Positions 2,661 through 49,774 of a DNA stretch of 57,546 bases are shown here, piece by piece. The stretch is taken from positions 1 to 57,546 of the forward strand of contig JAZQHJ010000078.1 in the NCBI GenBank assembly GCA_045540515.1, given 5' to 3'. Both the position numbers and the translations under genes were made by a program. The notes beneath the pieces were generated by a model, which had not been told where the DNA came from, made no database searches, and saw nothing but the letters and a program-made list of their open reading frames with translations. Numbering within the stretch: position 1 is the stretch's first letter; each line of letters opens with the position of its first letter. Origin of the DNA: Eubacteriales bacterium (GTDB lineage Bacteria > Bacillota > Clostridia > Oscillospirales > CAG-272).

Positions 2661-2697
2661 CCCCTACGGAACAATTATGAACCGTAGGGGTTTTTTT
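2661..2697. terminator. Bidirectional intrinsic terminator shared by the moron (+) and the giant gene (-)
   Basis: CCCCTACGG (2661-2669) pairs with CCGTAGGGG (2682-2690), followed by T7 on the plus strand. It sits directly after both stop codons. Confidence 0.75.
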
Positions 2698-5600: not shown

Positions 5601-8600
5601 GCAATTTTTTCTGTGAGTTTTTCACTTCTTCCAGAATCGAGATTAATAGCATTAAGCACATCTATAGTCTGACTCACAAGCTCTCTTGGTACATATTTAT
5701 TCTGAGTAGGGTGCAACAAACGAGACTTAAAAGAATCGGTAAGCTTTCTGATCTTACCTCTGAGCTCGGTCTTGTTTCTACGCTCGGTGAGATTTTTTCG
5801 CTCTTGCTTATGCTTTTCTACAAGCTTGTCGTACTTTTTCTTTTCAGCCTCTTGAACCTTGCGTCTTGTCTCTGCCTTTGCTTTCTTGACTTTTTCGTTG
5901 TGCTCTCTATGCAGTTTTCTGACAAGAGTATCTACATATCCGTTTTTACGATTATTGTACTTTTTCTCAACTACATCAGCTATCAAACGGCCAGTTAACT
6001 CTCCTGCCAGGTTGTTTTGCGATTTGCCAAACGCATACTCCACACCAGCATCCTGTGGATGATAAATTCTGTCAACCTTTTCTAAGAAAGTCTCCCAATT
6101 ATCTACAGCATCAGAATCTTCCGCACTAAACACCTGTGGAAACTCTTGAGCTAAATCGTAATAAAAAGTAGCAAAATCAACCTTGCGAGATTTGGTATCG
6201 CTGTTCTTTTTGACAACGTTAAGTTTGCCAAACAACTGATTTTTCAGCCACCCAACAGAACGACCTTGAAACTCAAGCGAGGACACCTGATCATCAGTCA
6301 GATAAACAGAATTTTTCTTTCTAAAGTCATTCAAATACTCTGATAAATCTTCTTTGAGTGCAATATCATCCTCAGTAGCAAAGGTAGTGTTTTTAATTAC
6401 CTTTTCAAATGTAGAACTGATAAGCTCCATATTTGCTTTTACATCTGATATATTTTTGCTATCAAGTAAAGACAACAGAGCAATAGAGATATCCTTGTTG
6501 TTTGAACTATCGAGATTATACGACTTGACAAGTTTTGATACAATGCGATTCAAGGCACTATCTGATAATTCTGTTTTACGTGTGTTATTAATCAGATGGT
6601 TAACAGTCAAGGCATCGCCTGTTATGTACTGACCGATAAGATATGCGTCATTGTCTGTCAACTCGCTGTACTCGTCATCAAACAGAAAATCATCTATACT
6701 CGGACGAGGTTGGTATTTTGTTTCACCATCAAAGTCCAGGCGAGTTTGGTAGAGCTTTTCACCTATTTGATTATATGCGGATAAGTATGTTTCAGTTTCT
6801 GTATTACTTCCTGTTCGTTCTGTGAACTGTTTAGTATATCCGTAAGATTTGAAAGAGTCTGGTAATAATGCTCTTTCCCCTGTGTCTTTGCGTCCCTTGT
6901 GATAGCTAAAATCTGCCGACTCGTAGTTTCTAACAAATTGGCTTCCGATAATATTCTCAGAAAGTTGTAAGCCGTATGAGTACTCGGATTTATTTCTCTT
7001 GTGGTCTTCTTGCTCATAGTAAATAATCTCCTTATATATTTCCGCTTCTGTTTCATTATTGGCGTTTATTACCAACACATTATGTATGATTGGAGCCTCG
7101 AATGGTCCGCTAATTAAAACCAACTTATTGTTAACTTCAACCACTCGTGTTCCATCGCCTAAAACATTATCTGTTTTCTGACGAGTTCTTGTATTAAGCT
7201 CGTTAAACTTTTCTTGTAACAGCTTATGCTCTTCATCAGTAAACAATCCGCTTGCCCATCCACGATTATTATACACCTTAAGCTCATTATCATCAAGGGT
7301 ATTTAGGTCAATATCAGTATATCTGCGAGAATATCGGAACTCCTGTATGCTAGAAACATAAGGCTCTGTACCATCAGCAAAATACTGTCTTATATCATTT
7401 ATGATTTTGCTTGTTTTTGTGCCTGACGGATATTCGACACTAACTTTCGTGTTACCTTGCAAATCATCTATATCAAGTAATATTTCTCCGTTAGCACGAG
7501 TAATATAGTCACTCAAAGCTGATTCCTGTGCTTTTGTTGGTGCAACAGAAAGATTTATACCATCTGATTCAGGCATAATTCTGATATTGCCCTGTTGCAT
7601 AAAGTGTACCATTGCCTCAGAACCACTTTCAAACTGTTCTTGGTCTTCTTCAGAAAAGCCGTCCCATATTTCTCTATGGTCTATTGTGCGATATCTTGCA
7701 TTAGAGCCAAACTTTCTGCCTGAAAAATCGAGTTTTCTGCCATCCGTCAATAGATATCCTGTTTCTTTCCAACTATATGTAGTTCCAAAGTGTTCTACCG
7801 TATCAGCAATAAGTCTTTGAGAAGATTTTTTTGAATTACTGTTGCTTTTTTCGGTGGAATCGGGTATAATACTTGTAGAGACATCATCTGTTGGCGACAA
7901 GCCTGAGTTTTCATTAACTCCGCCCGCCCTTTCAGTGGTGTCTTCTTTTTTTATATCAAAAACAAACTGCGTACCATCAGGCAATACTAACCTGTGCATT
8001 TTGTAATAATTATTATCTGCCATCCTCACTACAACAGCAACATTACCTCGTGTACCATTTATTGACACAGGTCCAGCAAAAGTCACAGTATTATATAGTC
8101 TATTTTTGTGGTTACTATGCTCGCCAATTTTTATACCTTTCATAATAATTTGCGGAACAGTAGCAAATGCAATTATTTCATTTTCGTTCTTAAGATATCT
8201 AAATCCATTTTTAATACGCTTAGAATCAAGTATCACATTACCAAACCCACTACGATTAATAATATCACCGTATTCTTCAAGTTGTTCAACAGCCCAGTCT
8301 CTCGCCTCTTGTTTAGTAGTGAATTCAAAATCCGAATTCACCCAGGCTACTATGTCCATATTATTTAGTAAATCTATATTTTCAATAATTTGCTCTCTAA
8401 GAGAACTGCTGTTTTCTCTTGAAAAATGCTTCACACCGTCCTCTGTGGCGGTGTTTTTTGTTTGTGATTTACCTGTAACTGTATCAGCGTTTTTACTTGC
8501 GTTTATGATACCCTGTGACCACTTGTCCATAATATCACTTAGTGTATCTGACATCTGGCTTACTATCTTGCTTTCTTCTGAATCTGCCGATAGTCTGCTA

Positions 8601-11600
8601 TATATCTCTTTTACCTTTGCTAAAAGGTCAGACAATAACTTCTTTATCTTCTGAGCAAGGCTTTTGTTTGTTTCAGACAGCTTTTCTACCTGCTGTGTCA
8701 GATTACCGTCAGCTAAGAAGCGTTCACAACTATCTGCTATAACTTCCTCAAACGCTTCGTTATAACTGAGTTTCTGTGACTGCATCCTGTCTTTAACAAG
8801 CTCATCCACATCAACGCCATGCTTTATGTACTCAGATACAAGAAAATCTGAAAAAGCTTTAAAATCTTCAGGTGAGTTCTTTGCGAAATAATGTGTTAGC
8901 TCGTGTGCCGCAGTAAACAGAATTGTACCCTTGCCGTTCATACCAGCATTAACGTCTATGTACATTGTGTTGGTATCTCGGTCAAACTGACCGTTTACTT
9001 CACCATATTTTGATGTAAAGCCACTCTTGGTCTTTGCTGAACGCTTAGATTCAAAGAATACAACATTATACCCAAGTTTATCCGCAAGATATGTAACAAC
9101 AGCTACACCCACTTGCTGACGTGCTGTGAGCTGTGATTTATCAAAGCCCTCAAACTTAACCTTGCTCTTTGTCTTGTAGTTGCTGTTATTAAGCTTTGAT
9201 TTTGCTTTTTGTACCTCTGCTTCGCGCAATGCCTGACCCACATCATAGTAGCTCTGCATTACACTTTGTGGCAACCCGTATGCTGTTAATTTACTATTAT
9301 CAGAAATATAGCCTTTTGCTAACGCTGACTTAACGTCAGATATATACTCTCCTGCTGTACCAAAGCTCTCGTGATATCCATTAAAAATAGAATTAGCTAT
9401 ATATGGACTTAGTTCTACCCCCATATAATTTTGAATATCTACTACGCCCTGATACAACACAGCAGAGTCTTTGTTACCAAGACTAAGCTCTTTTACAGAT
9501 TTAGTGCTACCGTCTGCCAGTTCTACAACAACATCATTTTTAGTAACACTTTTTATATCACCAACCTCAACAGCCTGTGCCGTGTCTGCTATATAGGTTT
9601 TGCCGTCATCGGACTGTGTGTAGTCTTCTATATCAATTTCTGTATCAGATGATTTCTCGACATTAGTGTTGTCAAGATATCTTTTGGTCTTATAAGTGTT
9701 ATGTATTCCCTCGAGCTGCTTTTCTGCCGCTCTGTTTAATATCACATCTGAACTATTGCGTATTGTTTTAAGCACCGCCTGAGCTTGTTCGGTATTTATT
9801 AGAGCGTTTTCTTTTTTGCTCAGCTTATCACCATTAAGTTCAGAATATACAGCGTCTACAGTTGCGTCTAAACTCTCGGTAACACCTAACCCGACTAACT
9901 CTTCTCGTATTGCTTCCTTTGTAGCTATGCTCTCTGCTCCAAAAACGAGGTCTGCGTTTCTTTCTTGTAATAATGAATACAGTTTGCCGACCTGTTTATT
10001 AAATCGCTTAGAAGCTAAATCTGAGGACTTTGTAGCCCCCGTGCTTTTTATCTTTTTAGCAAGTCCTATAATTTCTGCGTTTTCAGAGGTATTTGGCAAA
10101 CTCAATGCACTATCTACCAAAGCGTTAACGTTATTTGCCTCTGTTATATTCGCACCATATTTTTTGTTTTGTCGGTTTTGCTTTATTTCTGCGGATAAAG
10201 AAGGTGCATTAACAACAGCAGCTGAGCCACTACCTGCTACTAATCCTCCCATACCAGCTTCATATATTCGTGAAACCACCGCAAGAGCTAAAGCTACATT
10301 AGCAGACCACCCTTTTTCTAACATATAGACTTGAGCTTGTTGTGCTACATCAGATTTATCGCCTCTTAAAACCACATCAGCTGAGATGTTTACTATTTCT
10401 GTGCATATTTCTTCATAACCTTCTACACGTGCTTGTTTTAATACTCTCGCCAAAAATTTAGAGCCTTTTTTTGTGAATAATTTTTCTAAACTAATTTGTT
10501 CAAACACATACTCTGCAGCAGCTGCAATAGTTGCCTCAGTTGCTATTGTGCCGATATTTTCACCCTGCTCATAAAGTTCTCTCGCTCTTGCACTACCAGC
10601 AGCCATACTCAATGCTCCTGCCGCAAAACGCGAACCGCTTTTAACATCTTTTGTTACAGCAACACCAAGCGCACCAGCAAACATAGAATCAGCACCAGAC
10701 ATTAACGCTTGATAAGTGTCACCAACACTAAACCCCAACAAGTTTGCTCCATCTGTTTTTTTATCTATGTTGGAAGCTGTTTTTTCTCTTACTTTTTGGC
10801 TATCTGCCAACATAATATTAGAATTATCATATGGGCTATAATCATCTGTTAACATCTCATAACCATCAGAAACTCCTGATACAACACCGCCAACTACACC
10901 TGTTGGAACCGAAGCTAAATTTGCCAATATTGGTTGTTCTATAGCCCTCTTTTCTGCTTTTTTCATGCGATTATCAAAATTTTTCTTGTTAGTAATAATC
11001 GACATGTTCTCTAAGTATGAATCTGCCGCCTCTTTGCCCTCAGTGTTCAGAACGTAATAATACTTTGATACTTCTTCAGGTTCTAATAATGACCAGTTAT
11101 TTTTATCACCACTCAGTATTATGTTTTTATATGTATCTACGTTTTCACCCGAAATATATGTATTGGTTAATAAGTGTTCTTTTTCTTCATCTGTTAATCC
11201 GGTATAAAACGCATAAGAGTCAGTTACAACAGGTTGTGTATGTCTCTGATAATAAGTATCATCTAAAACATCGCCAAACGCATCTACATAATAAACGTTA
11301 CCATTACTATCATATTTTTCAGTAAATCCGTTGTCTATTCGTGTAGAGTAATCATTTATTTCCTGAAAACTTGGATTCACAAACTTTCTTTGCTTAGAAA
11401 CAACATCATAATCATCATTAGTTTCAATATTATAGTAATCATCGTATGTTTTTAAGCCACTTCGTTCATATAAATTTCTTATGGTTTCAAGTTCGTTTAT
11501 TCTGTTGTCTAAGCCGCTTGTTCCTGATGCACGTTTGTTTTTTAGCCCTTCGATTTCAGTAACTATTGCACTATAAGCATCTTTTCTGTTATCAACATTT

Positions 11601-12373
11601 CTTTTGTCAGTCCCATTATCGTTAAGAAAATTATACTTATAGTCTGACAGTTTAGTAATAGTTGCATCATATCTGTCAATGTTCTCAGTTTTTCCTCTAC
11701 GATTTGCACCGGCTTTATAACTTTCCAGACGTTTGATATCATCATCTATCTGCTTTGAGGTAACTGTTTTTGCATCATAGTTAGAAATATGCTTATATGC
11801 TTCAAGCTCACCAAAAGTACTGCTGTTTTTAGAAACTTTCAAAGGATTATTTAGCGTTGCACCTGGTACACTTAATGTTTTACCTTTTAATGTCTGAGTT
11901 TTGTGTAATTCTTTTTCATCTACATACTCAACGTATGGTGTACCAAAATCTTTTAATCCCTTTGAAGCTAATTCTATATAAGCATTTGCTACCTTGTTTG
12001 AACTGTCATCATAAGAATCAAGATACGACATCATTTGTGTATAAGGCTCTTTGCCAATATTGTTCTTATTAGCATTATAGTAAGCCTTTATCAAATTACA
12101 TCTGTTGTCTAAGTCACTTTTTTCTGCTAAAACACTTTTCTTTGCAACATCTTTGCCACTATAGCCAACATTACTATATTCACGCGATGCATTATTCAAA
12201 AACTGCTGAGAATCTGTAACAAAGCGTTTTATATAATTATCGCTTACATTAACGGTATATTTCTCTGCATTTTTCTTTATATCACTTGCAGATTTTTTAG
12301 ATTTATTGTTGTTACTAAAAATATATTTTCCGTTTCTTGCTTCTTGTAATATTTCTTCTGCAGTTTTAGCCAT
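2696..12373 (-). CDS. Giant 3225-aa composite virion-module protein (candidate ejected polyvalent / tape-measure-like protein) with an HExxH metallopeptidase-like module
   Basis: Uninterrupted 9678-nt ORF with ATG at 12373 and AAGGAG 9 nt upstream, in the late operon. It contains a Gly/Ala-rich hydrophobic segment (residues ~483-735), AAHELTHY at residues 1155-1162, and Lys/Glu coiled coils (~2150-2215 and ~2495-2555). Confidence 0.85.
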   Translation of the reverse strand: MAKTAEEILQEARNGKYIFSNNNKSKKSASDIKKNAEKYTVNVSDNYIKRFVTDSQQFLNNASREYSNVGYSGKDVAKKSVLAEKSDLDNRCNLIKAYYNANKNNIGKEPYTQMMSYLDSYDDSSNKVANAYIELASKGLKDFGTPYVEYVDEKELHKTQTLKGKTLSVPGATLNNPLKVSKNSSTFGELEAYKHISNYDAKTVTSKQIDDDIKRLESYKAGANRRGKTENIDRYDATITKLSDYKYNFLNDNGTDKRNVDNRKDAYSAIVTEIEGLKNKRASGTSGLDNRINELETIRNLYERSGLKTYDDYYNIETNDDYDVVSKQRKFVNPSFQEINDYSTRIDNGFTEKYDSNGNVYYVDAFGDVLDDTYYQRHTQPVVTDSYAFYTGLTDEEKEHLLTNTYISGENVDTYKNIILSGDKNNWSLLEPEEVSKYYYVLNTEGKEAADSYLENMSIITNKKNFDNRMKKAEKRAIEQPILANLASVPTGVVGGVVSGVSDGYEMLTDDYSPYDNSNIMLADSQKVREKTASNIDKKTDGANLLGFSVGDTYQALMSGADSMFAGALGVAVTKDVKSGSRFAAGALSMAAGSARARELYEQGENIGTIATEATIAAAAEYVFEQISLEKLFTKKGSKFLARVLKQARVEGYEEICTEIVNISADVVLRGDKSDVAQQAQVYMLEKGWSANVALALAVVSRIYEAGMGGLVAGSGSAAVVNAPSLSAEIKQNRQNKKYGANITEANNVNALVDSALSLPNTSENAEIIGLAKKIKSTGATKSSDLASKRFNKQVGKLYSLLQERNADLVFGAESIATKEAIREELVGLGVTESLDATVDAVYSELNGDKLSKKENALINTEQAQAVLKTIRNSSDVILNRAAEKQLEGIHNTYKTKRYLDNTNVEKSSDTEIDIEDYTQSDDGKTYIADTAQAVEVGDIKSVTKNDVVVELADGSTKSVKELSLGNKDSAVLYQGVVDIQNYMGVELSPYIANSIFNGYHESFGTAGEYISDVKSALAKGYISDNSKLTAYGLPQSVMQSYYDVGQALREAEVQKAKSKLNNSNYKTKSKVKFEGFDKSQLTARQQVGVAVVTYLADKLGYNVVFFESKRSAKTKSGFTSKYGEVNGQFDRDTNTMYIDVNAGMNGKGTILFTAAHELTHYFAKNSPEDFKAFSDFLVSEYIKHGVDVDELVKDRMQSQKLSYNEAFEEVIADSCERFLADGNLTQQVEKLSETNKSLAQKIKKLLSDLLAKVKEIYSRLSADSEESKIVSQMSDTLSDIMDKWSQGIINASKNADTVTGKSQTKNTATEDGVKHFSRENSSSLREQIIENIDLLNNMDIVAWVNSDFEFTTKQEARDWAVEQLEEYGDIINRSGFGNVILDSKRIKNGFRYLKNENEIIAFATVPQIIMKGIKIGEHSNHKNRLYNTVTFAGPVSINGTRGNVAVVVRMADNNYYKMHRLVLPDGTQFVFDIKKEDTTERAGGVNENSGLSPTDDVSTSIIPDSTEKSNSNSKKSSQRLIADTVEHFGTTYSWKETGYLLTDGRKLDFSGRKFGSNARYRTIDHREIWDGFSEEDQEQFESGSEAMVHFMQQGNIRIMPESDGINLSVAPTKAQESALSDYITRANGEILLDIDDLQGNTKVSVEYPSGTKTSKIINDIRQYFADGTEPYVSSIQEFRYSRRYTDIDLNTLDDNELKVYNNRGWASGLFTDEEHKLLQEKFNELNTRTRQKTDNVLGDGTRVVEVNNKLVLISGPFEAPIIHNVLVINANNETEAEIYKEIIYYEQEDHKRNKSEYSYGLQLSENIIGSQFVRNYESADFSYHKGRKDTGERALLPDSFKSYGYTKQFTERTGSNTETETYLSAYNQIGEKLYQTRLDFDGETKYQPRPSIDDFLFDDEYSELTDNDAYLIGQYITGDALTVNHLINNTRKTELSDSALNRIVSKLVKSYNLDSSNNKDISIALLSLLDSKNISDVKANMELISSTFEKVIKNTTFATEDDIALKEDLSEYLNDFRKKNSVYLTDDQVSSLEFQGRSVGWLKNQLFGKLNVVKKNSDTKSRKVDFATFYYDLAQEFPQVFSAEDSDAVDNWETFLEKVDRIYHPQDAGVEYAFGKSQNNLAGELTGRLIADVVEKKYNNRKNGYVDTLVRKLHREHNEKVKKAKAETRRKVQEAEKKKYDKLVEKHKQERKNLTERRNKTELRGKIRKLTDSFKSRLLHPTQNKYVPRELVSQTIDVLNAINLDSGRSEKLTEKIASLRTVYDAMKNDASYYAAYDDTVSNMMLHLTDILGNTSITNMSFRQLQYTYDTLKALDTVVCESVKLTDTEYKQSTHEFGRTLIQEIRDIPKSHDSLLDKYLTMMTSPESFFDTIAGFKKDSNSSKLYRMLNDGQLKTTRMEMEFYQLFDELLADRKSLKTLINTKELVDIGLSDDEGNKIQITRGMMLSLYMHLTNQQNANHIQRGGLTVPDIASYYKGDMDKAFGTKQESARGISLLTSKLNHQLSELEDELEEAKDDPKKTKDIQNKIDDVKTKLENAKSQGEQYISGLRGAIESQLTEYEKQWLSTAHYFFDTVTKRELNDTTYKLYGYAKATVKNYYPIHTDSNYRAASFENIVRDLSLENSGMMKSRTMGASNPILLEDITDVITTYIDRVSTYCGMTIPIKNFQKVYGTTKAGFETSVQRELSLKFSKIATNYIDDLLTDLTAGRKGSTDFISKTLDKARGSLAHATLSVNLRVAIAQAASYPTAAAEIGWKPLIKALAKGGKNGSVISRADKELIAKWSPLLYKRMQGYSTTEIGDLKSERSKRIVAEKKMRWLLGWIQAVDGATVGRLWYAAEYYVQDNKTDLKKGTDTYYEEVAKVFNNIVERTQPNYATMQRPDLLRNPNSLLKTMTMFMTQRLQNFNIVYRSVGKYNKMLKDYKSGKNEVTVQDVKDAKIDLNRAVSSQAVAAVTIVAMKALSDILMHSLNGYRDDDDELTAESVSLTLLDNLIDTIVGCVFLGSDMYSLSKVLWNKWFGDGKDYYYGMSLNGVETFAEIADSIVDFSGEPNLENFNNLAKSVCQLTGIPLTNVEKIATGLYYWYVDIANGDFLKFEAGTNRSISQNINRYNTAYEKGNTTETQLIVDEIVQEKYDEYYIQGYTKEEAKKKAISSVKSSFGNYYKDVYLNYLFVEKNANKANQIKRVLYSTGLWSKLADIDKLCQGWREGYLEKQDREKQAESRK
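8891..8905 (-). other. HExxH motif (H1157-E-L-T-H1161) of the giant protein
   Basis: The reverse complement of atgtgttagctcgtg is CAC GAG CTA ACA CAT. Protein context: GKGTILFTAAHELTHYFAKNSPEDF ... EEVIADSCERF. Confidence 0.7.
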
Positions 12374-32490: not shown

Positions 32491-32755
32491 TATATACTCT
32501 CCTTATATAGATTTGTTTATCTCTTGCAGCATCACAGCAGCCGACAGACAACTGCTGGTATTTTTAGTGGTTTTGGTTTCGCGACTACTAAAGTTTTCTT
32601 ACGGTTCGTCTGACAACAACCGTGAAAATTGTGTGCTTATCTTTAGGACGGTTTTTTAATGCTTAAGTTTTTGCTGTCTGTTCCTTTCGGAAACTTACTG
32701 CCCCCAGTAAACTCGGCTACTCTGATACTGCAAGAAACGGTATGTATTAATAATC

Positions 32756-32784
32756 TTGAAACTTTTACCAATATCACCTATAAT
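32756..32784 (+). promoter_or_regulatory. SigA-type promoter followed by a 13-bp imperfect inverted repeat
   Basis: TTGAAA (32756-32761), 17 nt, TATAAT (32779-32784), then TGAGTTgTCGGTA ... TACCGAtaAACTCA (32785-32818). Confidence 0.6.
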
Positions 32785-32838
32785 TGAGTTGTCGGTATTT
32801 GCGGTACCGATAAACTCAAATGAATGGAGGTGTTATTA

Positions 32839-33006
32839 TTGGTTAAACCAGAAAAGATTGCGTTTGAAGCAACAAAAGAAATCGTTATTGCTAAGATGAC
32901 AAGTTCATCTATCTCACCATCGGCAGATGGTGGTGAAAAAGTTGGGGATTTTTTCAAAGAAATTTATGATAAAATCCTCGAGATCACCATGGAATTAGAA
33001 AACTAA
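32839..33006 (+). CDS. 55-aa hypothetical protein on the plus strand within the early region
   Basis: GGAGG at 32826-32830 lies 8 nt before TTG 32839; the track's ATG 32824 sits inside that RBS. Own promoter and terminator. Confidence 0.5.
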   Translation: MVKPEKIAFEATKEIVIAKMTSSSISPSADGGEKVGDFFKEIYDKILEITMELEN

Positions 33007-33024
33007 ATCTTATTATCCATAAAG

Positions 33025-33058
33025 GCCTTTGCAATCAGCAACATTGCAAGGGCTTTTG
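33025..33058. terminator. Terminator between convergent genes
   Basis: GCCTTTGCAAT-cagcaac-ATTGCAAGGGC followed by TTTT. Confidence 0.65.
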
Positions 33059-33089: not shown

Positions 33090-33272
33090 TCAATTTTTGG
33101 TTAATGGGTTTTCTATAGATACTTCACCTGTATCTATACGTTGCTCATCACGAGCAAGCAATTTACCATCTGTCGTCCAATACTCGACAATTTTCATTTG
33201 GCGACCTGTTAATGGGTCACACTCACGTAATCTAATTGTTTCTATAACAGTAATCAATTTTGCACTTAGCAT
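33090..33272 (-). CDS. 60-aa hypothetical protein
   Basis: Strong AAGGAG RBS 8 nt upstream of the ATG. Confidence 0.55.
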   Translation of the reverse strand: MLSAKLITVIETIRLRECDPLTGRQMKIVEYWTTDGKLLARDEQRIDTGEVSIENPLTKN

Positions 33273-33315
33273 AATTTCAACTCCTTAGTTAAAAATTGGG
33301 TTTTACTAAAAATAA

Positions 33316-33344
33316 TTGACTTAATACAAGAAAACTTGTAAAAT
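33316..33344 (+). promoter_or_regulatory. SigA-type promoter of the non-coding unit
   Basis: TTGACT (33316-33321), 17 nt, TAAAAT (33339-33344) preceded by TG. Confidence 0.55.
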
Positions 33345-33350
33345 AATATT

Positions 33351-33700
33351 GTGCCTATGTGGCAATGAAAGGAGCTGGTCGCATTGACCAAACTTTTGAA
33401 TTTGCCTGCTCTCTTATTTTAGGTCGCCATCGTGCTCGCATCACGTTTAATCTGCAGAGGCAACCCACTGATACGGCGAGGGCTTGCGGTTACCTACAAG
33501 CTCCAGAAATGGAAACCCACCGTATTTAGTGTTCCTAAAAGTTGTCAGCGATTAGGCTCTCGCAGAACTAAAACTGCAAAAGTGACAACATTTCTAATAG
33601 AAACATATTGTGCGATGATATGTGGCGAAAGCCTGCAAGAAATATAGGGTAAAAAAATTTAGGCAAATTCTGAAAGAAATCGCACTTCTTTCAGTTTTTT
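33351..33700 (+). ncRNA. Candidate ~350-nt structured non-coding RNA of unknown class
   Basis: Bounded by a promoter and an intrinsic terminator. By my count it is about 51% G+C over 33421-33540, versus roughly 37% for the surrounding phage DNA. Multiple helices, including GTTGTCA/TGACAAC (33541-47/33583-89), GCTTG/CAAGC (33482-86/33497-501) and a GGC-GAAA-GCC tetraloop hairpin (33624-33633). The only ORF is a GTG-initiated, RBS-less 71-aa frame. Confidence 0.5.
33670..33700 (+). terminator. Intrinsic terminator of the non-coding unit
   Basis: CTGAAAGAA-atcgcac-TTCTTTCAG followed by T6. Confidence 0.75.
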
Positions 33701-33712
33701 GTTGGCTAACTT

Positions 33713-33727
33713 GTTGCGTTTCGCAAC
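33713..33727. promoter_or_regulatory. Operator-like palindrome GTTGCGTTTCGCAAC (distal copy)
   Basis: A 15-bp GTTGC-N5-GCAAC palindrome abutting the stop of the cro-like gene; near-identical to 33952-33966. Confidence 0.55.
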
Positions 33728-33934
33728 TTATTTGGCATAAAAAAAGCTTCTATATTCATCATCAGAAATAGAAAGTATATTTTGAAGTTGGTCAGCTTCA
33801 CCCAATGTCATAGGGGATTTACCTAAGATTTTCTGCCCAAGTATGTATGCGGATATTCCCATTTCGTTAGCGATTTTACCAATTGTTAAACCTTTTTCAA
33901 CTATACGTGCTTTAATCTTATTTGTATTTGGCAT
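33728..33934 (-). CDS. Cro-like XRE-family HTH regulator (68 aa)
   Basis: MPNTNKIKARIVEKGLTIGKIANEMGISAYILGQKILGKSPMTLGEADQL; GAGGTG RBS 7 nt upstream of ATG 33934; divergent from the repressor. Confidence 0.7.
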   Translation of the reverse strand: MPNTNKIKARIVEKGLTIGKIANEMGISAYILGQKILGKSPMTLGEADQLQNILSISDDEYRSFFYAK

Positions 33935-33951
33935 ATTATTCACCTCTTTTC

Positions 33952-33966
33952 GTTGCGTTTTGCAAC
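33952..33966. promoter_or_regulatory. Operator-like palindrome GTTGCGTTTTGCAAC in the divergent control region
   Basis: Perfect GTTGC-N5-GCAAC between the cro-like and repressor genes. Further half-sites at TTGCAAC 34006-34012 and the tandem TTGTTGCAT x2 at 34037-34054. Confidence 0.6.
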
Positions 33967-34036
33967 TAAATAATAACATCTCTCTTTTAAGGTGTCAATA
34001 GCATTTTGCAACTTTTTTTATTTTTTTTACAAATAT

Positions 34037-34083: not shown

Positions 34084-34749
34084 ATGAGTATTAGAAGTAA
34101 TTTAATAGGAATTCGTCTCAAGTATTGTAGAGAATACAACAACAAAACACTTGAAGATATCGGCAAAATGTTTGGCGTTCATAAATCTACAGTTTCGCGT
34201 TGGGAAAAAGGAGAAACAGATAGAATCAACTTAATGGTTATAGCTGCATTAGCAAACTATTACGGTGTCTCTGAAGCATGGTTATCTGGTAAAGATGTAC
34301 CTATGGATAGAAACAATACTTCTGACATTGATTTATCTGAAGTTGATAACGTTGTACCTTTCCCTAATATGAAAAAGGTACCGCTACTTGGTTCTATCGC
34401 CTGTGGTGAACCTATCACTGCTGAAGAAAACATTGAGACGTATTTGAATATGCCAGAAAACACCAAAGGCACTTTTGCTCTTCGATGCAAGGGCGACAGT
34501 ATGATAACCGCACGTATCTTTGACGGAGATATAGTTTTCATCAGAGAACAACCTGATGTAGAGAACGGAGAGATTGCAGCGGTTCTGATTGATAACGAGG
34601 CCACTCTCAAGCGTGTATATAAATACGACAACAGAATTGAACTACGCGCCGAGAATCCAACATTTCAACCATTGAGCTATGAGGGCGAAAAACTTGCAGA
34701 TATCCGTATCCTCGGTAAAGCTGTCGGATTTTTGAGTACGATTATTTGA
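34084..34749 (+). CDS. CI/LexA-type repressor (N-terminal XRE HTH plus C-terminal S24 peptidase domain)
   Basis: The HTH is LEDIGKMFGVHKSTVSRWEKGE. The S24 Ser/Lys dyad context is RCKGDSM ... EATLKRV. Start taken at ATG 34084, not the TTG at 34006. Confidence 0.85.
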   Translation: MSIRSNLIGIRLKYCREYNNKTLEDIGKMFGVHKSTVSRWEKGETDRINLMVIAALANYYGVSEAWLSGKDVPMDRNNTSDIDLSEVDNVVPFPNMKKVPLLGSIACGEPITAEENIETYLNMPENTKGTFALRCKGDSMITARIFDGDIVFIREQPDVENGEIAAVLIDNEATLKRVYKYDNRIELRAENPTFQPLSYEGEKLADIRILGKAVGFLSTII

Positions 34750-35133: not shown

Positions 35134-35267
35134 AAAAACCGCCCTACCTGACTGGTCCTCAGATAGAGCGGCACATCACCACAGGGGGCAATGACACGAT
35201 ATTAGTGCAAGAAGATTGTATCATAAATCCCTGTGCCTTGCAATACAAAAAACAGGGGGGTATTTTT

Positions 35268-36314
35268 ATGGCAAAAGCTAAAAAGCTACCGAGCGGTAAT
35301 TGGCGAGTGCAGGTGTATAGTTTTACCGATACCGAAGGCAAACGCCACTACCATTCAATAACCGCCACAACTAAAAAGCAAGCTGAGTATGAAGCGGCAC
35401 AATATGCTCTAAATCGTCAGAAAGATATTACATATTCTAATTTAACCTTATCTGAAGCATATGCTCGATATATTGATAGCAAATCCAACGTGTTGTCACC
35501 ATCAACGGTAAGAGAATATACTCAAGCTATGCACAGAGACTTTCAACATCTAATGCCAATAAAATTATCAAAACTTACAGCTGAAATTATTCAAACAGCC
35601 ACAAACGAAGCCGCCGCTAAATATGCTCCTAAAACGGTTAGAAACAAGCACGGTTTACTTCATTCAGTATTAAAAGCATACAGACCCGACTTAGTTCTTA
35701 CAACTCACCTACCACAAAAGAAAAGACCAGAATACACCATTCCTACAACATCAGAAATACAACTTCTTTTAGACAACGCTAACGATAGAATTAAAGTTCC
35801 TATACTGCTCGCAAGCTCAGGGGGATTAAGGCGCTCAGAAATATGCGCTCTTACGCCCAACGACTTTAACGACTTCGGCGTAACCATAAATAAAGCTATG
35901 GTTAAAAATAAAGATGGTAAATTTGTTATTAAGCAACCAAAAACAAGTGCTGGATATAGATTTGTGCCGCTACCCAAAAACGTTATCAAAGAAGCACTCA
36001 ACTGGGAACTATTTGGTGAAAAGCCATACACAATACAAAAGCATTTTTCGATCCTTGTGAAAAAACTCAATATACCGCACACAACTTTTCATAAACTCCG
36101 TCATTATTTTGCATCAGAACTTCACGCTCAAGGTATACCGGATAAATATATTGCACAAATAGGCGGATGGGAATCCGTTGAAATATTACACCAAATATAC
36201 CAGCATACACTAAGAGATAAAGAAACCGAAATATCAAACAAAATTATAAATATTTTTGCAAATAACTTCAGTTCTAAAAATGATATCATTATATCAAAAA
36301 AGACCATTGTTTGA
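35268..36314 (+). CDS. int: Tyrosine integrase
   Basis: MAKAKKLPSGNWRVQVY N-terminus (SAM-like arm domain). The catalytic region contains SGGLRRSE, HKLRHYFAS and GGWESVEILHQIYQH. GGGGGG RBS before ATG 35268. Confidence 0.85.
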   Translation: MAKAKKLPSGNWRVQVYSFTDTEGKRHYHSITATTKKQAEYEAAQYALNRQKDITYSNLTLSEAYARYIDSKSNVLSPSTVREYTQAMHRDFQHLMPIKLSKLTAEIIQTATNEAAAKYAPKTVRNKHGLLHSVLKAYRPDLVLTTHLPQKKRPEYTIPTTSEIQLLLDNANDRIKVPILLASSGGLRRSEICALTPNDFNDFGVTINKAMVKNKDGKFVIKQPKTSAGYRFVPLPKNVIKEALNWELFGEKPYTIQKHFSILVKKLNIPHTTFHKLRHYFASELHAQGIPDKYIAQIGGWESVEILHQIYQHTLRDKETEISNKIINIFANNFSSKNDIIISKKTIV

Positions 36315-47656: not shown

Positions 47657-47701
47657 TTTGTGATTATTACTTTGTATATTACCTAAGGAGGTATTTTGAA
47701 A

Positions 47702-49774
47702 ATGTATAGAACACATTTTTGTAACGACATCCGTGAATCAGATGTAGGCATTAAGGTTGAGCTTGCAGGCTGGGTCGATGTTATTCGTGACCACGGTGGC
47801 GTTATCTTCGTTGATTTGCGTGACTACACAGGTATTACTCAGGTAGTTGTTCATAACGAAGAATTGCTCGAAAAAGTTGGCAGAGAGACAGTTATCTCTG
47901 TAAGCGGTATTGTCAGAAAGCGTGACGAAGATACCGTTAACGATAAGATTGCAACAGGTAAGGTTGAGCTTGTGGCTGATACTCTGACGGTACTCGGCAG
48001 ATGCACCAATATGCTACCGTTTGAGGTATCTAACTCTCGTGCATCAAAGGACGAACTGAGACTTAAGTATCGCTATCTTGACCTTAGAAATCCTAAGAAC
48101 CACAACAACCTTGTTATGCGTTCTAAGATTATCCGTCACCTGCGTAATCTTATGGAGAGCAAAAACTTCCTTGATATGCAGACTCCGATTCTTACTGCAT
48201 CATCACCTGAGGGTGCCAGAGACTTTTTGGTGCCATCACGTAAGCATCCGGGTAAGTTCTACGCTTTGCCACAGGCTCCACAGCAGTTCAAACAGCTACT
48301 GATGGTATCAGGCTTTGACAGATATTTTCAGGTTGCTCCGTGTTTTAGAGATGAAGACGCCCGTGCTGACCGCTCACCGGGTGAGTTCTATCAGCTTGAC
48401 TTTGAGATGGCATTTGCTACTCAGGAGGAAGTGCTCGATGTCTGCGAAGATGTAATCTACGATACATTCAAGACCTTCTCTGACAAGAAAATCACACCAA
48501 AGCCATTCAGACGCATCACCTACGCTGATGCTATGATGACCTATGGCTCTGACAAACCTGACCTGAGAAACCCGCTTGTTATCTGCGATTTGACAGACTT
48601 CTTTATGGATGTCAACTTCCCTGCATTCAAGGGCAAGCCTGTTCGTGGTATTGTCGCTGACTGTCAGGGCAAGTCAAAGAAGTTCTTTGAAGATTCTCTC
48701 AAATACGCTACCTCTATGGAGGTAGGACTCGGCGGTTTGGGATATATCACTCTCAAAGAGGGTGTGTTTGCAGGCCCTATCGCTAAATTCTTAAGTGACG
48801 AGAAAAAGGCAGAAATCGTAACACTCACAGGTGTTAAAGAAGGTCAGACTCTGTTCTTTATCTGTGATGATAAAAAATCAGACACAGAGAAAAAGGCAGG
48901 TATGATACGCACATGGCTCGCTGATAAAAACCAGCTTGACCTGATAAGAGACGATGCGTTTGAATTCTGCTTTGTTGTTGACTTCCCTATGTTTGAAGAA
49001 GACGAAGAAACAGGCGAGACAATATTTACTCACAACCCGTTCTCTATGCCACAAGGTGGTATGGATGCTCTGCTCAACAAAGACCCAGAAAGCGTACTTG
49101 CATACCAATATGACCTTGTATGTAATGGTATTGAGCTTGCATCCGGTGCTGTGCGTAACCACGATATCGAAATAATGAAAAAAGCCTTTGAAATTGCAGG
49201 CTATGAAGAATCTGAACTCAAGAAACGCTTCAACGCACTATATACAGCGTTTCAGTATGGTGCACCGCCTCACGCAGGTATGGCACCGGGTATTGACCGT
49301 ATGGTGATGCTGCTGACTGATGAGGAGAAGATTCTTGATGTTATTGCATTCCCATTAAACGGTAATGCTCAGGACTTATTGCTTGGTGCTCCGGGTGAGG
49401 TCACTGACCAGCAGCTTGAGGATGTTCATCTGCTCGGCAACGGCAGTGCACTTGCTCACCGCTCTACAAAGGCAGGAGCTAAAAGCTCTATGGGCAAACG
49501 CTCAACATTCTCAAATGCACAACAGCTTAATCAGCTCTCTCTGACAGAGGACGAAGAGGCTGTTATGCAGGGCATTTTTGATGCTATGAAAACAAGCGAA
49601 GAAAGCCTGAAATCAAGCGATACAACAGATATAGAGCCTATGGTACACGTGATGCCTATGACTAACGTACTAAGAGATGACAAGAGAGTTCAGAACTTCA
49701 GCAGAGATGATTTGCTCAAGAGCTCTCCACAGCACTCTGACGATAGCTGGCAAGTGCCACGACTTGTAAAGTGA
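47702..49774 (+). CDS. aspS: Aspartyl-tRNA synthetase fused in frame to a GatC-like C-terminal domain
   Basis: Class II AspRS motifs (FYALPQAPQQFKQLLM, FRDEDARADRSPEF, GGMDALLN...APPHAGMAPGIDR) up to about residue 580 of the track ORF. A ~30-aa linker follows, then LSLTEDEE...DIEPMVHVMPMTNVLRDDK...WQVPRLV (49526-49771), which matches GatC. The start is ATG 47702 or TTG 47696. Confidence 0.85.
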   Translation: MYRTHFCNDIRESDVGIKVELAGWVDVIRDHGGVIFVDLRDYTGITQVVVHNEELLEKVGRETVISVSGIVRKRDEDTVNDKIATGKVELVADTLTVLGRCTNMLPFEVSNSRASKDELRLKYRYLDLRNPKNHNNLVMRSKIIRHLRNLMESKNFLDMQTPILTASSPEGARDFLVPSRKHPGKFYALPQAPQQFKQLLMVSGFDRYFQVAPCFRDEDARADRSPGEFYQLDFEMAFATQEEVLDVCEDVIYDTFKTFSDKKITPKPFRRITYADAMMTYGSDKPDLRNPLVICDLTDFFMDVNFPAFKGKPVRGIVADCQGKSKKFFEDSLKYATSMEVGLGGLGYITLKEGVFAGPIAKFLSDEKKAEIVTLTGVKEGQTLFFICDDKKSDTEKKAGMIRTWLADKNQLDLIRDDAFEFCFVVDFPMFEEDEETGETIFTHNPFSMPQGGMDALLNKDPESVLAYQYDLVCNGIELASGAVRNHDIEIMKKAFEIAGYEESELKKRFNALYTAFQYGAPPHAGMAPGIDRMVMLLTDEEKILDVIAFPLNGNAQDLLLGAPGEVTDQQLEDVHLLGNGSALAHRSTKAGAKSSMGKRSTFSNAQQLNQLSLTEDEEAVMQGIFDAMKTSEESLKSSDTTDIEPMVHVMPMTNVLRDDKRVQNFSRDDLLKSSPQHSDDSWQVPRLVK

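What the first reader, a model, noticed from the sequence alone, without database searches (positions are those of the whole stretch)
33316..33700. Promoter-to-terminator ~350-nt GC-enriched structured unit with no credible ORF inside the immunity region
A good promoter (TTGACT-17-TAAAAT) and a clean intrinsic terminator (33670-33700) bracket about 350 nt on the plus strand. This is the strand of the repressor and integrase, opposite to the lytic early operon. By my count the central 120 nt is about 51% G+C, versus roughly 37% for the surrounding phage DNA. It contains nested complementary segments: TCGCC/GGCGA at 33424-28/33475-79; GCTTG/CAAGC; GTTGTCA/TGACAAC, which encloses small hairpins; and a GGC-GAAA-GCC tetraloop hairpin. 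The only ORF (33432-33647) starts at GTG without an RBS and is Arg-rich, as expected from translating a GC-rich RNA. The unit is convergent with and antisense to any leftward transcript leaving the cro-like gene. It could therefore be an immunity or antisense RNA, a lysogen-expressed defence-associated RNA, or a new structured RNA class. I cannot match it to a family I know; it is too short for ROOL/GOLLD, and there is no RT, TnpB/IscB or tandem repeat nearby.
Basis: seen in the sequence. Interest (0 to 1): 0.7.

Follow-up and report, generated by a model that had tools for sequence, protein, structure and literature searches.

The report
FuFi-1 prophage RNA with 5′ extension
This is a real non-coding RNA gene, running from its own promoter to its own terminator, in a prophage's lysis/lysogeny control region: its 3′ half is the FuFi-1 RNA, which is already catalogued but has no known function, and its 5′ half is a conserved extension that the catalogue model does not cover.

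Summary
A promoter (33316-33344) and an intrinsic terminator (33670-33700) bracket a ~350-nt unit on the + strand. It is GC-enriched and has no credible protein gene.

It is not a new class. Bases 33541-33700 match Rfam RF02986 (FuFi-1 RNA) at 139.6 bits, against a threshold of 59.6. FuFi-1 was described in 2017 and its function is unknown. Covariation in 51 relatives supports its fold here, including two pseudoknots.

What looks new concerns the family. The Rfam model covers only the 3′ domain. In about 200 related loci the same promoter position, a 5′ hairpin, a GAAAGGAG box and a nearly invariant 40-nt core precede FuFi-1. An optional inserted domain lies between them (33420-37 here). The core reads as a 12-codon mini-ORF, but its variation shows no codon pattern.

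The gene always sits in the immunity region. It points the same way as the CI-like repressor and integrase. It usually lies tail-to-tail with a cro-like gene and directly upstream of the first distal early gene on the opposite strand, which has no detectable promoter of its own.

Best guess (about 0.4, inferred): a convergent antisense brake on early lytic transcription. A trans-acting structured RNA is nearly as likely.

The parts
33316..33344 (+). Sigma-70-type promoter of the RNA (-35 TTGACT 33316-21, 17-nt spacer, -10 TAAAAT 33339-44). The inferred start is about 33351.
   Evidence: Position and quality are conserved in relatives: at least 10/12 in 96 of 140 loci, against 1 of 140 shuffles.
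33353..33363 (+). 5′-terminal hairpin GCC-UAUGU-GGC at the very start of the transcript.
   Evidence: It is present at the same place in relatives, with GCC/GGC, CCC/GGG and G-U variants. 80% of cells are paired and all 3 pairs show changes on both sides.
33367..33374 (+). Shine-Dalgarno-like box GAAAGGAG. It can pair with GCUCUCUU (33408-15).
   Evidence: It is more than 90% conserved. The pairing is compatible in 88% of cells, but only one-sided (G-U) changes occur, so it is neither proven nor refuted.
33384..33422 (+). Nearly invariant 5′ core UUGACCAAACUUUUGAAUUUGCCUGCUCUCUU. It reads as a 12-codon mini-ORF (M-T-K-L-L-N-L-P-A-L-L-F, stop UAG) that starts 9 nt after the SD-like box.
   Evidence: Relatives are 80-88% identical here. 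Invariant columns are shown. The start position is TTG/ATG/GTG in 58 of 59 genome hits. Variation shows no 3-nt periodicity. UGCCU (33403-07) covaries with AGGCU (33554-58) in the FuFi-1 domain.
33420..33537 (+). Optional middle domain. It is closed by UAGG (33420-23) with CCUA (33534-37). It holds the hairpin CGUG/CACG (33431-34/33442-45), the long stem 33470-78 with 33518-26, and window-specific hairpins.
   Evidence: RNAalifold on 39 relatives gives 12 of 16 pairs with compensatory changes. The domain is absent or shorter in other family members, where the core-to-hairpin distance clusters at roughly 50-90, 110-170 or 190-210 nt (~65-215 nt by the motif search).
33541..33700 (+). FuFi-1 domain (Rfam RF02986). 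P1 is 33541-47/33583-89. Hairpin 1 is 33562-77. P2 is 33590-95/33638-43. P3 is 33603-09/33617-23. P4 is 33624-33.
   Evidence: 139.6 bits against a gathering score of 59.6, model positions 1-175. 95.8% of cells are paired and 43 of 48 pairs change on both sides; 0 of 500 shuffles reach this.
33568..33662 (+). Pseudoknot 1: the hairpin-1 loop CUAAA (33568-72) pairs with UUUAG (33658-62).
   Evidence: 97.6% paired. The C-G to U-A switch occurs in 15 of 51 sequences.
33610..33685 (+). Pseudoknot 2 (kissing loops): the P3 loop GUGCGAU (33610-16) pairs with the terminator loop AUCGCAC (33679-85).
   Evidence: 98.6% paired, and all 7 pairs change on both sides.
33670..33700 (+). Intrinsic terminator (stem 33670-78/33686-94, then U run). 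It is an integral part of the fold.
33713..33728 (.). Context: operator-like palindrome GTTGCGTTTCGCAACT between the RNA terminator and the stop codon of the cro-like gene. Two more copies lie at 33952-67 and 33998-34013, in the cro/CI promoter region.
33728..33979 (-). Context: cro-like HTH gene (83 aa), convergent and tail-to-tail with the RNA. Its promoter is at 33998-33970.
   Evidence: In 50 of 107 related loci a minus-strand HTH gene is the first ORF after the terminator, and its stop codon lies a median of 6.5 nt from the terminator.
34084..34749 (+). Context: CI/LexA-like repressor, on the same strand as the RNA. The integrase follows at 35265-36314 (+).
   Evidence: PHROG 4 at 7e-44 and PHROG 1 at 1e-55.
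33090..33272 (-). Context: first distal early gene (60 aa, with SD AAGGAG). It starts about 80 nt upstream of the RNA start, and no minus-strand promoter is detectable for it.
   Evidence: The same arrangement is seen in relatives.

Best explanation
Identity (near certain):
- Bases 33351-33700 are one non-coding RNA gene of about 350 nt with its own promoter and terminator.
- Its 3′ 160 nt are a FuFi-1 RNA (Rfam RF02986).
- Its 5′ 190 nt are a conserved extension that belongs to the same RNA in nearly all relatives. It comprises a 5′ hairpin, an SD-like box, an invariant core and an optional inserted domain.

Mechanism (inferred, about 0.4):
- The gene is a strongly and constitutively transcribed unit that faces the early lytic transcript.
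- That transcript starts at the cro-side promoter. To reach the distal early genes it must run antisense through the whole RNA gene. In many relatives the first of these genes is an antirepressor; here it is a 60-aa gene at 33272-33090.
- Head-on transcription, plus a stable and fully complementary RNA, would abort, pair with or expose to cleavage any leaky lytic transcript beyond cro.
- The effect would be to hold the distal early genes off in the lysogen and to raise the threshold for induction.
- The 5′ hairpin with the SD-like box, and the doubly pseudoknotted 3′ domain with its built-in terminator, would make the RNA long-lived.

Shown: identity, fold, conserved promoter, conserved position and orientation, and the lack of a detectable promoter for the gene just upstream.
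Inferred: that both transcripts exist and interact.
For: Identity:
- Rfam match.
- Fold and two pseudoknots supported by covariation.
- 5′ region conserved upstream of FuFi-1 in 55 viral loci that were picked only by a FuFi-1 hairpin 16-mer.
- A covariance model of the 5′ module, trained without those loci, finds it in 45 of the first 100 of them.
- Conversely, 204 of 239 instances of the 5′ core have a FuFi-1 domain downstream.
- UGCCY in the core covaries with RGGCA in the FuFi-1 domain: T-A 47, C-G 26, T-G 8 of 105.
- The promoter is conserved.

Geometry:
- An HTH gene lies on the same strand within 2.5 kb downstream in 95 of 107 loci.
- A minus-strand HTH gene is the first ORF after the terminator in 50 of 107 loci, with its stop codon a median of 6.5 nt from the terminator.
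- A recombinase lies downstream on the + strand in 30 of 48 loci.
- A minus-strand gene with SD and ATG starts about 95 nt upstream of the RNA start in at least 71 of 143 loci, against 5 of 143 in the orientation control.
- In 40 loci the upstream minus-strand neighbour looks like an antirepressor (cluster C2; named from its sequence, no family search was run).
- Minus-strand promoter-like sites are not enriched, either in the gap or inside the RNA gene.
- In the window, no minus-strand promoter scoring at least 9/12 lies between 32491 and 33872.
- In the window, the terminator read in reverse is followed only by AAUUUG, so it should leak.

Precedents, from general knowledge: P22 sar RNA, which acts against the antirepressor gene ant; lambda OOP and the PRE antisense transcript of cro; and the convergent promoters of coliphage 186.
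Against: - No transcript data are available for either strand.
- A purely cis-antisense role does not explain the strong conservation of sequence and tertiary structure across unrelated phages. An antisense RNA is complementary to its target by construction.
- In many relatives the A-rich tract before the terminator stem would give 4-5 U on the other strand. The hairpin may therefore also terminate cro transcripts, in which case little lytic transcription would enter the RNA gene.
- Distal early genes could use promoters that a sigma-70 consensus scan misses.
- My simple ORF caller placed the first upstream ORF on the minus strand in only 82 of 153 loci. In the window it chose a spurious plus-strand ORF over the real minus-strand gene.
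Confidence: 0.4

Rival explanations
1. Trans-acting structured RNA expressed by the lysogen (a 'moron'). Its compact, pseudoknotted fold and invariant single-stranded core would bind a conserved host or phage partner, such as a protein, the ribosome or another RNA. Its place in the immunity region would only ensure expression during lysogeny.
For: - Sequence and fold are conserved across many unrelated prophages of Clostridia, a Paenibacillaceae genome and an AT-rich group, while the flanking genes are not.
- About 17 columns of the 5′ core are invariant and show no covarying partner. That is typical of a binding surface.
- Weinberg et al. judged the motif likely to have a 'sophisticated biochemical function' and found no self-cleavage (PMC5737381).
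- It is an independent promoter-to-terminator unit.
Against: - No partner protein family co-occurs with it. Only the HTH, integrase, ImmA and antirepressor genes of any immunity region recur.
- It does not by itself explain the strict placement between the cro side and the distal early genes, nor the strict orientation.
Confidence: 0.3
2. Dual-function RNA, or translation-coupled regulator. The SD-like box and the NTG codon load a ribosome onto a mini-ORF (M-T-K-L-L-x-L-P...). Either the short peptide, or the ribosome occupying the invariant core, would be the active principle, with the FuFi-1 domain docked to it.
For: - GAAAGGAG lies 8-10 nt before TTG/ATG/GTG in 58 of 59 genome hits.
- The ORF is open for at least 10 codons everywhere.
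- The AT-rich variants have different first codons, yet keep SD plus start in frame with L-L-x-(L/M)-P. They include a synonymous TTG-to-TTA change.
- The core is physically linked to the FuFi-1 domain through UGCCY:RGGCA.
Against: - Variation shows no 3-nt periodicity; the third positions of codons 2, 4, 5 and 7 are invariant.
- ORF length varies from 10 to about 30 codons, and is 12 in only 26 of 59.
- The 'stop' at codon 13 is the 5′ strand of a covarying helix (A-U to G-C), and is lost where that helix uses other bases.
- The start codon lies in a possible GGUC/GACC hairpin.
Confidence: 0.12
3. Leader of a PRE-like establishment transcript. The RNA would be a conditional terminator, and read-through would give an anti-cro RNA and the repressor/integrase mRNA.
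For: The unit is on the same strand as CI and integrase and upstream of them in 95 of 107 loci. The geometry resembles lambda PRE (general knowledge).
Against: - The terminator loop is locked into a strongly covarying kissing interaction, so the terminated RNA is the selected form.
- Where CI follows directly, an 11/12 promoter lies between the terminator and CI in 9 of 14 loci.
- The window has its own cro/CI divergent promoter region with operators.
- The RNA promoter is near consensus rather than activator-dependent.
Confidence: 0.05
4. The unit encodes the 71-aa (33432-33647) or 56-aa (33359-33529) protein.
For: Both ORFs exist in the window.
Against: - Neither has a ribosome-binding site.
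- Relatives differ by frequent indels that are not multiples of three, and by whole-domain insertions and deletions.
- ORFs that overlap the unit in relatives fall in different frames and on different strands.
- The region is explained by a covarying RNA fold.
Confidence: 0.01

Closest known systems
FuFi-1 RNA motif (Rfam RF02986; Weinberg et al. 2017, PMC5737381)
   Same: Bases 33541-33700 are a full-length, high-scoring member. They have the same helices, the same conserved junction nucleotides and the built-in terminator, and they sit in a prophage. The function is unknown in the literature held here: only one paper in the library names the motif.
   Different: The transcript here, and in nearly all relatives examined, starts about 65-215 nt upstream of the Rfam model. 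It carries a conserved 5′ module that no Rfam family matches, even at E up to 10. I could not read the 2017 supplement, so I cannot say whether its authors noted this.
Phage cis-antisense regulators of early or antirepressor genes: P22 sar, lambda OOP and the PRE antisense transcript of cro, and the convergent promoters of coliphage 186 (general knowledge)
   Same: A lysogeny-strand transcript lies opposite the lytic transcript just beyond cro, and in many relatives just before an antirepressor gene. This is what the unit most plausibly works like.
   Different: Those RNAs are short, specific to their phage and not conserved as a structured family. This one is 230-400 nt, has at least two pseudoknots, and is conserved across unrelated phages. 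There is no sequence relationship.
P4 CI / P1 c4 / N15 CA immunity RNAs (Rfam C4 antisense RNA family; general knowledge)
   Same: Each is an RNA, rather than or in addition to a protein, that contributes to phage immunity.
   Different: There is no Rfam match. Those RNAs are about 80 nt long, are processed from the sense transcript, and act on short complementary sites.
prgQ / Anti-Q convergent pair of plasmid pCF10 (general knowledge)
   Same: A short ORF sits at the 5′ end of a ~400-nt RNA that ends at a terminator and is convergent with an HTH regulator gene.
   Different: In pCF10 the transcripts overlap and the peptide is a 23-aa secreted pheromone precursor. Here the genes abut without overlapping, and the ORF varies in length and shows no coding signature.
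ROOL and GOLLD (large orphan RNAs associated with prophages)
   Same: Each is an elaborately structured RNA of unknown function carried by prophages of Firmicutes.
   Different: They are much larger and usually lie near tRNA genes. There is no Rfam match here and no tRNA in the window.

Membership tests
FuFi-1 RNA (RF02986) | Covariance-model score at or above the curated gathering score, over the full model | tested here: met
   139.6 bits against 59.6, model positions 1-175, E = 1e-30.
FuFi-1 RNA (RF02986) | Helices of the consensus fold (P1, hairpin 1, P2, P3, P4) are kept and covary | tested here: met
   95.8% of cells are paired and 43 of 48 pairs have compensatory changes. Slid controls give 36-40%.
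FuFi-1 RNA (RF02986) | Conserved unpaired nucleotides (GAACYAAAAC loop, AAGUGA, AUAGAA, CCUGCAA, AUAGGGUAAA.AAAUUU) | tested here: met
   All are present in the window (alignment; invariant columns).
FuFi-1 RNA (RF02986) | Rho-independent terminator as the 3′ element of the motif | tested here: met
   33670-33700. The terminator loop also forms a covarying kissing interaction.
FuFi-1 RNA (RF02986) | Found in Firmicutes and Fusobacteria, typically in prophage-like surroundings (family description, from memory) | tested here: inconclusive
   The prophage context is clear, and relatives lie almost entirely in Clostridia genomes. The window's own organism could not be identified: exact-protein look-ups found nothing.
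Cis-antisense regulator of a lytic transcript (sar/OOP type) | A transcript from the opposite strand overlaps the RNA gene | not testable with these tools
   Only the geometry is available: a minus-strand gene just upstream with no detectable promoter. No expression data.
C4/CI-type immunity RNA (Rfam C4 family) | Match to the family model | tested here: not met
   The C4 model gave no match on the + strand anywhere in the unit (33345-33700), even at E up to 10.
Riboswitch or attenuator leader (PRE-like) | A same-strand gene downstream that depends on read-through, and a terminator that alternates with another fold | tested here: not met
   The next gene is convergent. Strong promoters lie between the terminator and CI in 9 of 14 loci where CI follows directly. 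The terminator is part of the conserved tertiary fold.
Small protein gene or type I toxin | An ORF conserved in frame and length, with codon-pattern variation; for a type I toxin, also hydrophobic and about 19-60 aa | tested here: not met
   The 71-aa and 56-aa ORFs are not conserved. The mini-ORF varies from 10 to 30 codons and shows no periodicity.
tRNA / tmRNA | Detected by ARAGORN | tested here: not met
   0 genes in the window.

The most novel reading that the evidence does not exclude
FuFi-1 as catalogued would be only the 3′ domain of a bipartite RNA of about 230-400 nt. Its invariant 5′ module would be a ribosome-engaging mini-ORF (SD, then NTG, then M-T-K-L-L-x-L-P) docked to the doubly pseudoknotted domain through UGCCY:RGGCA. 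The whole would be a translation-coupled RNA device built into the lysis/lysogeny switch of many gut Clostridia phages. No regulator of that kind has been described for phage switches, as far as I know.
Probability: 0.12. Interest if true: 0.75.

Novelty: new member of a known kind. Interest (0 to 1): 0.42.

Why it matters
FuFi-1 is one of the widespread bacterial RNAs flagged in 2017 as likely to have a sophisticated function, and it still has none assigned. This window and about 200 relatives give three leads that can be tested.
- The RNA is about twice as long as the model used to annotate it. It has a conserved promoter, a 5′ hairpin, an SD-like box and an invariant core. Experiments done on the 175-nt motif alone may therefore have used an incomplete molecule.
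- It carries two strongly covarying pseudoknots, plus a likely third contact to the 5′ core.
- It occupies one fixed place in the genetic switch of temperate phages of gut Clostridia, facing the early lytic transcript beyond cro and often in front of an antirepressor gene.

Together these turn 'orphan RNA' into a concrete hypothesis about the stability of lysogeny. The hypothesis can be tested in any cultivable lysogen that carries the RNA.

Tried and rejected
- **blastn of 33280-33720 against 50,697 GenBank phage records:** no match. The family seems absent from cultured-phage records at that sensitivity.
- **Identifying the window's organism:** exact-protein look-ups for CI and for a host protein found nothing on record. 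I did not pursue this further.
- **Perfect 10-bp complement 33398-33407 / 33661-33670:** attractive as a closing helix, but not kept in relatives. In the scan of 88 representatives it gave no run of at least 4 columns with 78% pairing.
- **CCAAA (5′ core) pairing with UUUGG (3′ tail):** rejected. The tail pairs with the hairpin-1 loop instead.
rejected.
- **Search for any covarying partner of the variable core columns:** nothing above the thresholds, apart from one pair inside the 5′ module. The UGCCY:RGGCA contact was found only by a targeted count.
- **Minus-strand promoter in or next to the RNA gene:** not enriched.
- **Conserved partner protein:** none. The 60-aa neighbour is not conserved.
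- **Minimum-free-energy folding of the full RNA:** gives a fold that contradicts the covariation-supported one, so I did not use it for structure. The 5′ 90 nt alone fold no better than shuffles (z = 0.19).
- **Literature:** only the 2017 paper names FuFi-1. A search on antisense RNA, antirepressor and Clostridia phages found nothing relevant.
- **A full-length covariance model:** not possible within the tool's calibration limit, so only the 74-position 5′ module was modelled.

Full report
**Observation.** The + strand carries TTGACT-17-TAAAAT at 33316-33344 and a 9-bp hairpin with a T run at 33670-33700. G+C rises to 0.48-0.51 across 33360-33559, against 0.24-0.36 around it. The 350-nt transcript folds better than all 100 shuffles (z = -3.5). 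A cro-like HTH gene lies at 33728-33979 (-). A CI/LexA-like repressor lies at 34084-34749 (+) and an integrase at 35265-36314 (+). Early lytic genes, such as an exonuclease, lie on the minus strand to the left. There are no tandem repeats and no tRNA or tmRNA.

**What it is.** An Rfam scan of the whole window gives one hit: RF02986, FuFi-1 RNA, at 33541-33700 (+). It scores 139.6 bits against a gathering score of 59.6 and covers the full model (alignment). FuFi-1 was described by Weinberg et al. in 2017. [quoted passage not shown] It is rarely found in 5′ UTRs and showed no self-cleavage (PMC5737381). No other paper in the library names it.

**Fold of the 3′ domain.** I aligned the window with 50 diverse relatives and tested six nested helices and two pseudoknots. 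95.8% of cells are paired, against 36-40% when partners are slid. 43 of 48 pairs change on both sides, and no shuffle out of 500 reaches the observed values. The two pseudoknots are the best-supported elements.
- The hairpin-1 loop CUAAA (33568-72) pairs with UUUAG (33658-62).
- The P3 loop GUGCGAU (33610-16) pairs with the terminator loop AUCGCAC (33679-85).

Because the terminator loop is part of the tertiary fold, the terminated RNA is the form under selection.

**The 5′ half.** No Rfam family covers 33345-33540, even at E up to 10, and the same is true for a relative. I collected loci in three ways:
- with the FuFi-1 hairpin 16-mer in viral contigs;
- with a 5′-core pattern in genomes;
- with an SD-plus-core pattern in metagenomes.

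In the viral set, chosen without reference to the 5′ region, window bases about 33352-33435 recur at 80-88% identity, at a fixed side and distance, in 55 loci. That is higher identity than for FuFi-1 itself. A covariance model of the 5′ module was trained only on genome and metagenome sequences. It finds the module in 45 of the first 100 viral loci, always upstream on the same strand. An AT-rich subgroup has a diverged version, with FuFi-1 confirmed by Rfam in the two of its loci that were scanned (L004, L034). Two loci (L030, L097) lack the module and have a promoter directly before hairpin 1.

Conversely, 204 of 239 instances of the 5′ core are followed by a FuFi-1 domain. Most of the rest are cut by contig ends or carry a FuFi-1-like domain below Rfam's threshold. 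The promoter is conserved in quality and position. So the family's RNA has this order: promoter, 5′ hairpin, GAAAGGAG, invariant core, optional middle domain, FuFi-1 with terminator. The distance from core to hairpin 1 clusters at roughly 50-90, 110-170 or 190-210 nt.

In the window the middle domain is 33420-33537. It is closed by UAGG/CCUA and contains a covarying hairpin and a long stem. One contact ties the two halves together. The base after UGCC in the core (33407) covaries with the base before GGC in the P1 internal loop (33554): T-A 47, C-G 26, T-G 8 of 105 distinct units. Clade effects could inflate this count.

**Is the core a coding sequence?** It reads as SD (33367-74), then 9 nt, then a TTG start and 12 codons (33384-33422).
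- In favour: the start position is T/A/G-TG in 58 of 59 genome hits. The AT-rich variants keep SD and start in frame with L-L-x-(L/M)-P despite having different first codons.
- Against: variation shows no three-base periodicity, and the third positions of several codons are invariant. ORF length ranges from 10 to about 30 codons. The 'stop' is the 5′ strand of the covarying closing helix.
- The proposed SD/anti-SD and GGUC/GACC helices are compatible with the data, including G-U variants on the + strand, but they lack compensatory changes.
- The 5′ 90 nt alone are not unusually stable.

I conclude that the constraint acts on the RNA. Ribosome binding or translation is possible but unproven. 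The 71-aa and 56-aa ORFs are not conserved.

**Context in relatives.** I called ORFs around 204 units and clustered them.
- An HTH gene on the RNA's strand lies within 2.5 kb downstream in 95 of 107 loci.
- In 50 of 107 loci the first ORF after the terminator is a small minus-strand HTH gene. Its stop codon lies a median of 6.5 nt from the terminator.
- Recombinase genes follow on the same strand in 30 of 48 loci, and ImmA-like peptidase genes in 28 loci.
- Upstream, a minus-strand gene with SD and ATG begins about 95 nt before the RNA start in at least 71 of 143 loci, against 5 in the orientation control. In 40 loci the upstream neighbour looks like an antirepressor (cluster C2; named from its sequence, no family search was run).
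- Minus-strand promoter-like sites are no more frequent than in shuffles, either in that gap or inside the RNA gene. The window has none between 32491 and 33872.
- No other protein family travels with the RNA. The window's 60-aa neighbour is not conserved.

**Mechanism.** The conserved geometry says that lytic transcription from the cro side must cross the RNA gene head-on to reach the distal early genes. The RNA gene has a near-consensus promoter. My preferred reading (about 0.4) is therefore a convergent-transcription and antisense brake that keeps those genes silent in the lysogen, like P22 sar or the lambda OOP and PRE antisense transcripts. Stability would come from the 5′ hairpin with the SD-like box and from the pseudoknotted 3′ end.

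The weak point is that this role does not explain the conservation of sequence and tertiary fold across unrelated phages. For that reason a trans-acting RNA that binds a conserved partner is almost as likely (0.3). A translation-coupled or peptide role for the core gets 0.12.

A PRE-like leader is unlikely (0.05). The terminator is structurally locked, and CI has its own strong promoters where this could be checked. No evidence points to defence.

**Novelty and verdict.** The window holds a new member of a known orphan family. The added value concerns the family: the longer transcript, the three long-range contacts and the fixed place in the phage switch. I could not read the 2017 supplement, so some of this may already have been noted there.

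Noticed in passing
window 33713-33728, 33952-33967, 33998-34013: There are three copies of a 16-nt operator-like palindrome (GTTGCGTTTCGCAACT and variants). Two lie in the cro/CI divergent promoter region. The third lies 239 bp away, between the FuFi-1 terminator and the cro stop codon. This layout suggests repressor looping or a roadblock.
   Followed up: partly
window 32756-33058: A second unit in the lysogeny orientation. It has an 11/12 promoter (32756-32784), a 60-aa ORF (32824-33006, no PHROG match) and, by eye, a hairpin with a T run at about 33020-33058. Weak homologues of the ORF lie near FuFi-1 units in L296, L162, L109 and L226.
   Followed up: partly
window 32491-32755: A gap of about 265 nt without an ORF lies upstream of the 82-aa minus-strand HTH gene. 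Part of it is G+C-rich (GCAGCATCACAGCAGCCGACAGACAACTGCTG). It could be a long leader or another RNA.
   Followed up: no
L007, L044, L086, L272, L041, L251, L275, L283 (50-130 nt after the FuFi-1 terminator): Where a same-strand HTH gene follows the RNA directly, an 11/12 promoter lies 47-62 nt after the terminator as extracted (122 nt in L272). It is followed by a 60-80-nt segment ending in a hairpin and T run, for example ...CGCAGTCCGCTAAATGTAAGGGGGCTTGGGTTTTT. This may be a second small RNA gene.
   Followed up: no
L002/L007/L008/L041/L044 group and L011: Phage-specific inverted repeats of 16-21 nt flank the whole RNA gene. In the L002 group TTGACTGCGGCGGGGA overlaps the -35 box and recurs, inverted, right after the terminator. 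In L011 the repeat is CCTTATGTAAGCCGATAAAAC. They may be operator sites on both sides of the gene.
   Followed up: no
L179 (Allofournierella massiliensis), 3279-3826: Two units of the family lie in tandem, with their 5′ cores 526 nt apart.
   Followed up: no
L030 7560-7830 and L097: A FuFi-1 domain (138.8 bits) occurs without the 5′ module. A TTGATA-17-CATAAT promoter sits directly before hairpin 1. This is a minimal form of the RNA.
   Followed up: partly
L125, L134, L150, L154, L170: The 5′ module is joined to a 3′ domain that Rfam's FuFi-1 model does not recognise at its threshold. The order of motifs is similar in L125, L134 and L150 (hairpin, UAAG, AUAGAA, CUGCAA, GUAAACAA). The module is therefore more widespread than the catalogued motif.
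   Followed up: partly
window 2696-12373 (-): A single ORF of 3225 aa lies in the structural-gene part of the prophage.
   Followed up: no
window 47696-49774 (+): A host aspartate-tRNA ligase carries a C-terminal GatC domain (residues 604-691), giving a fused AspS-GatC.
   Followed up: no
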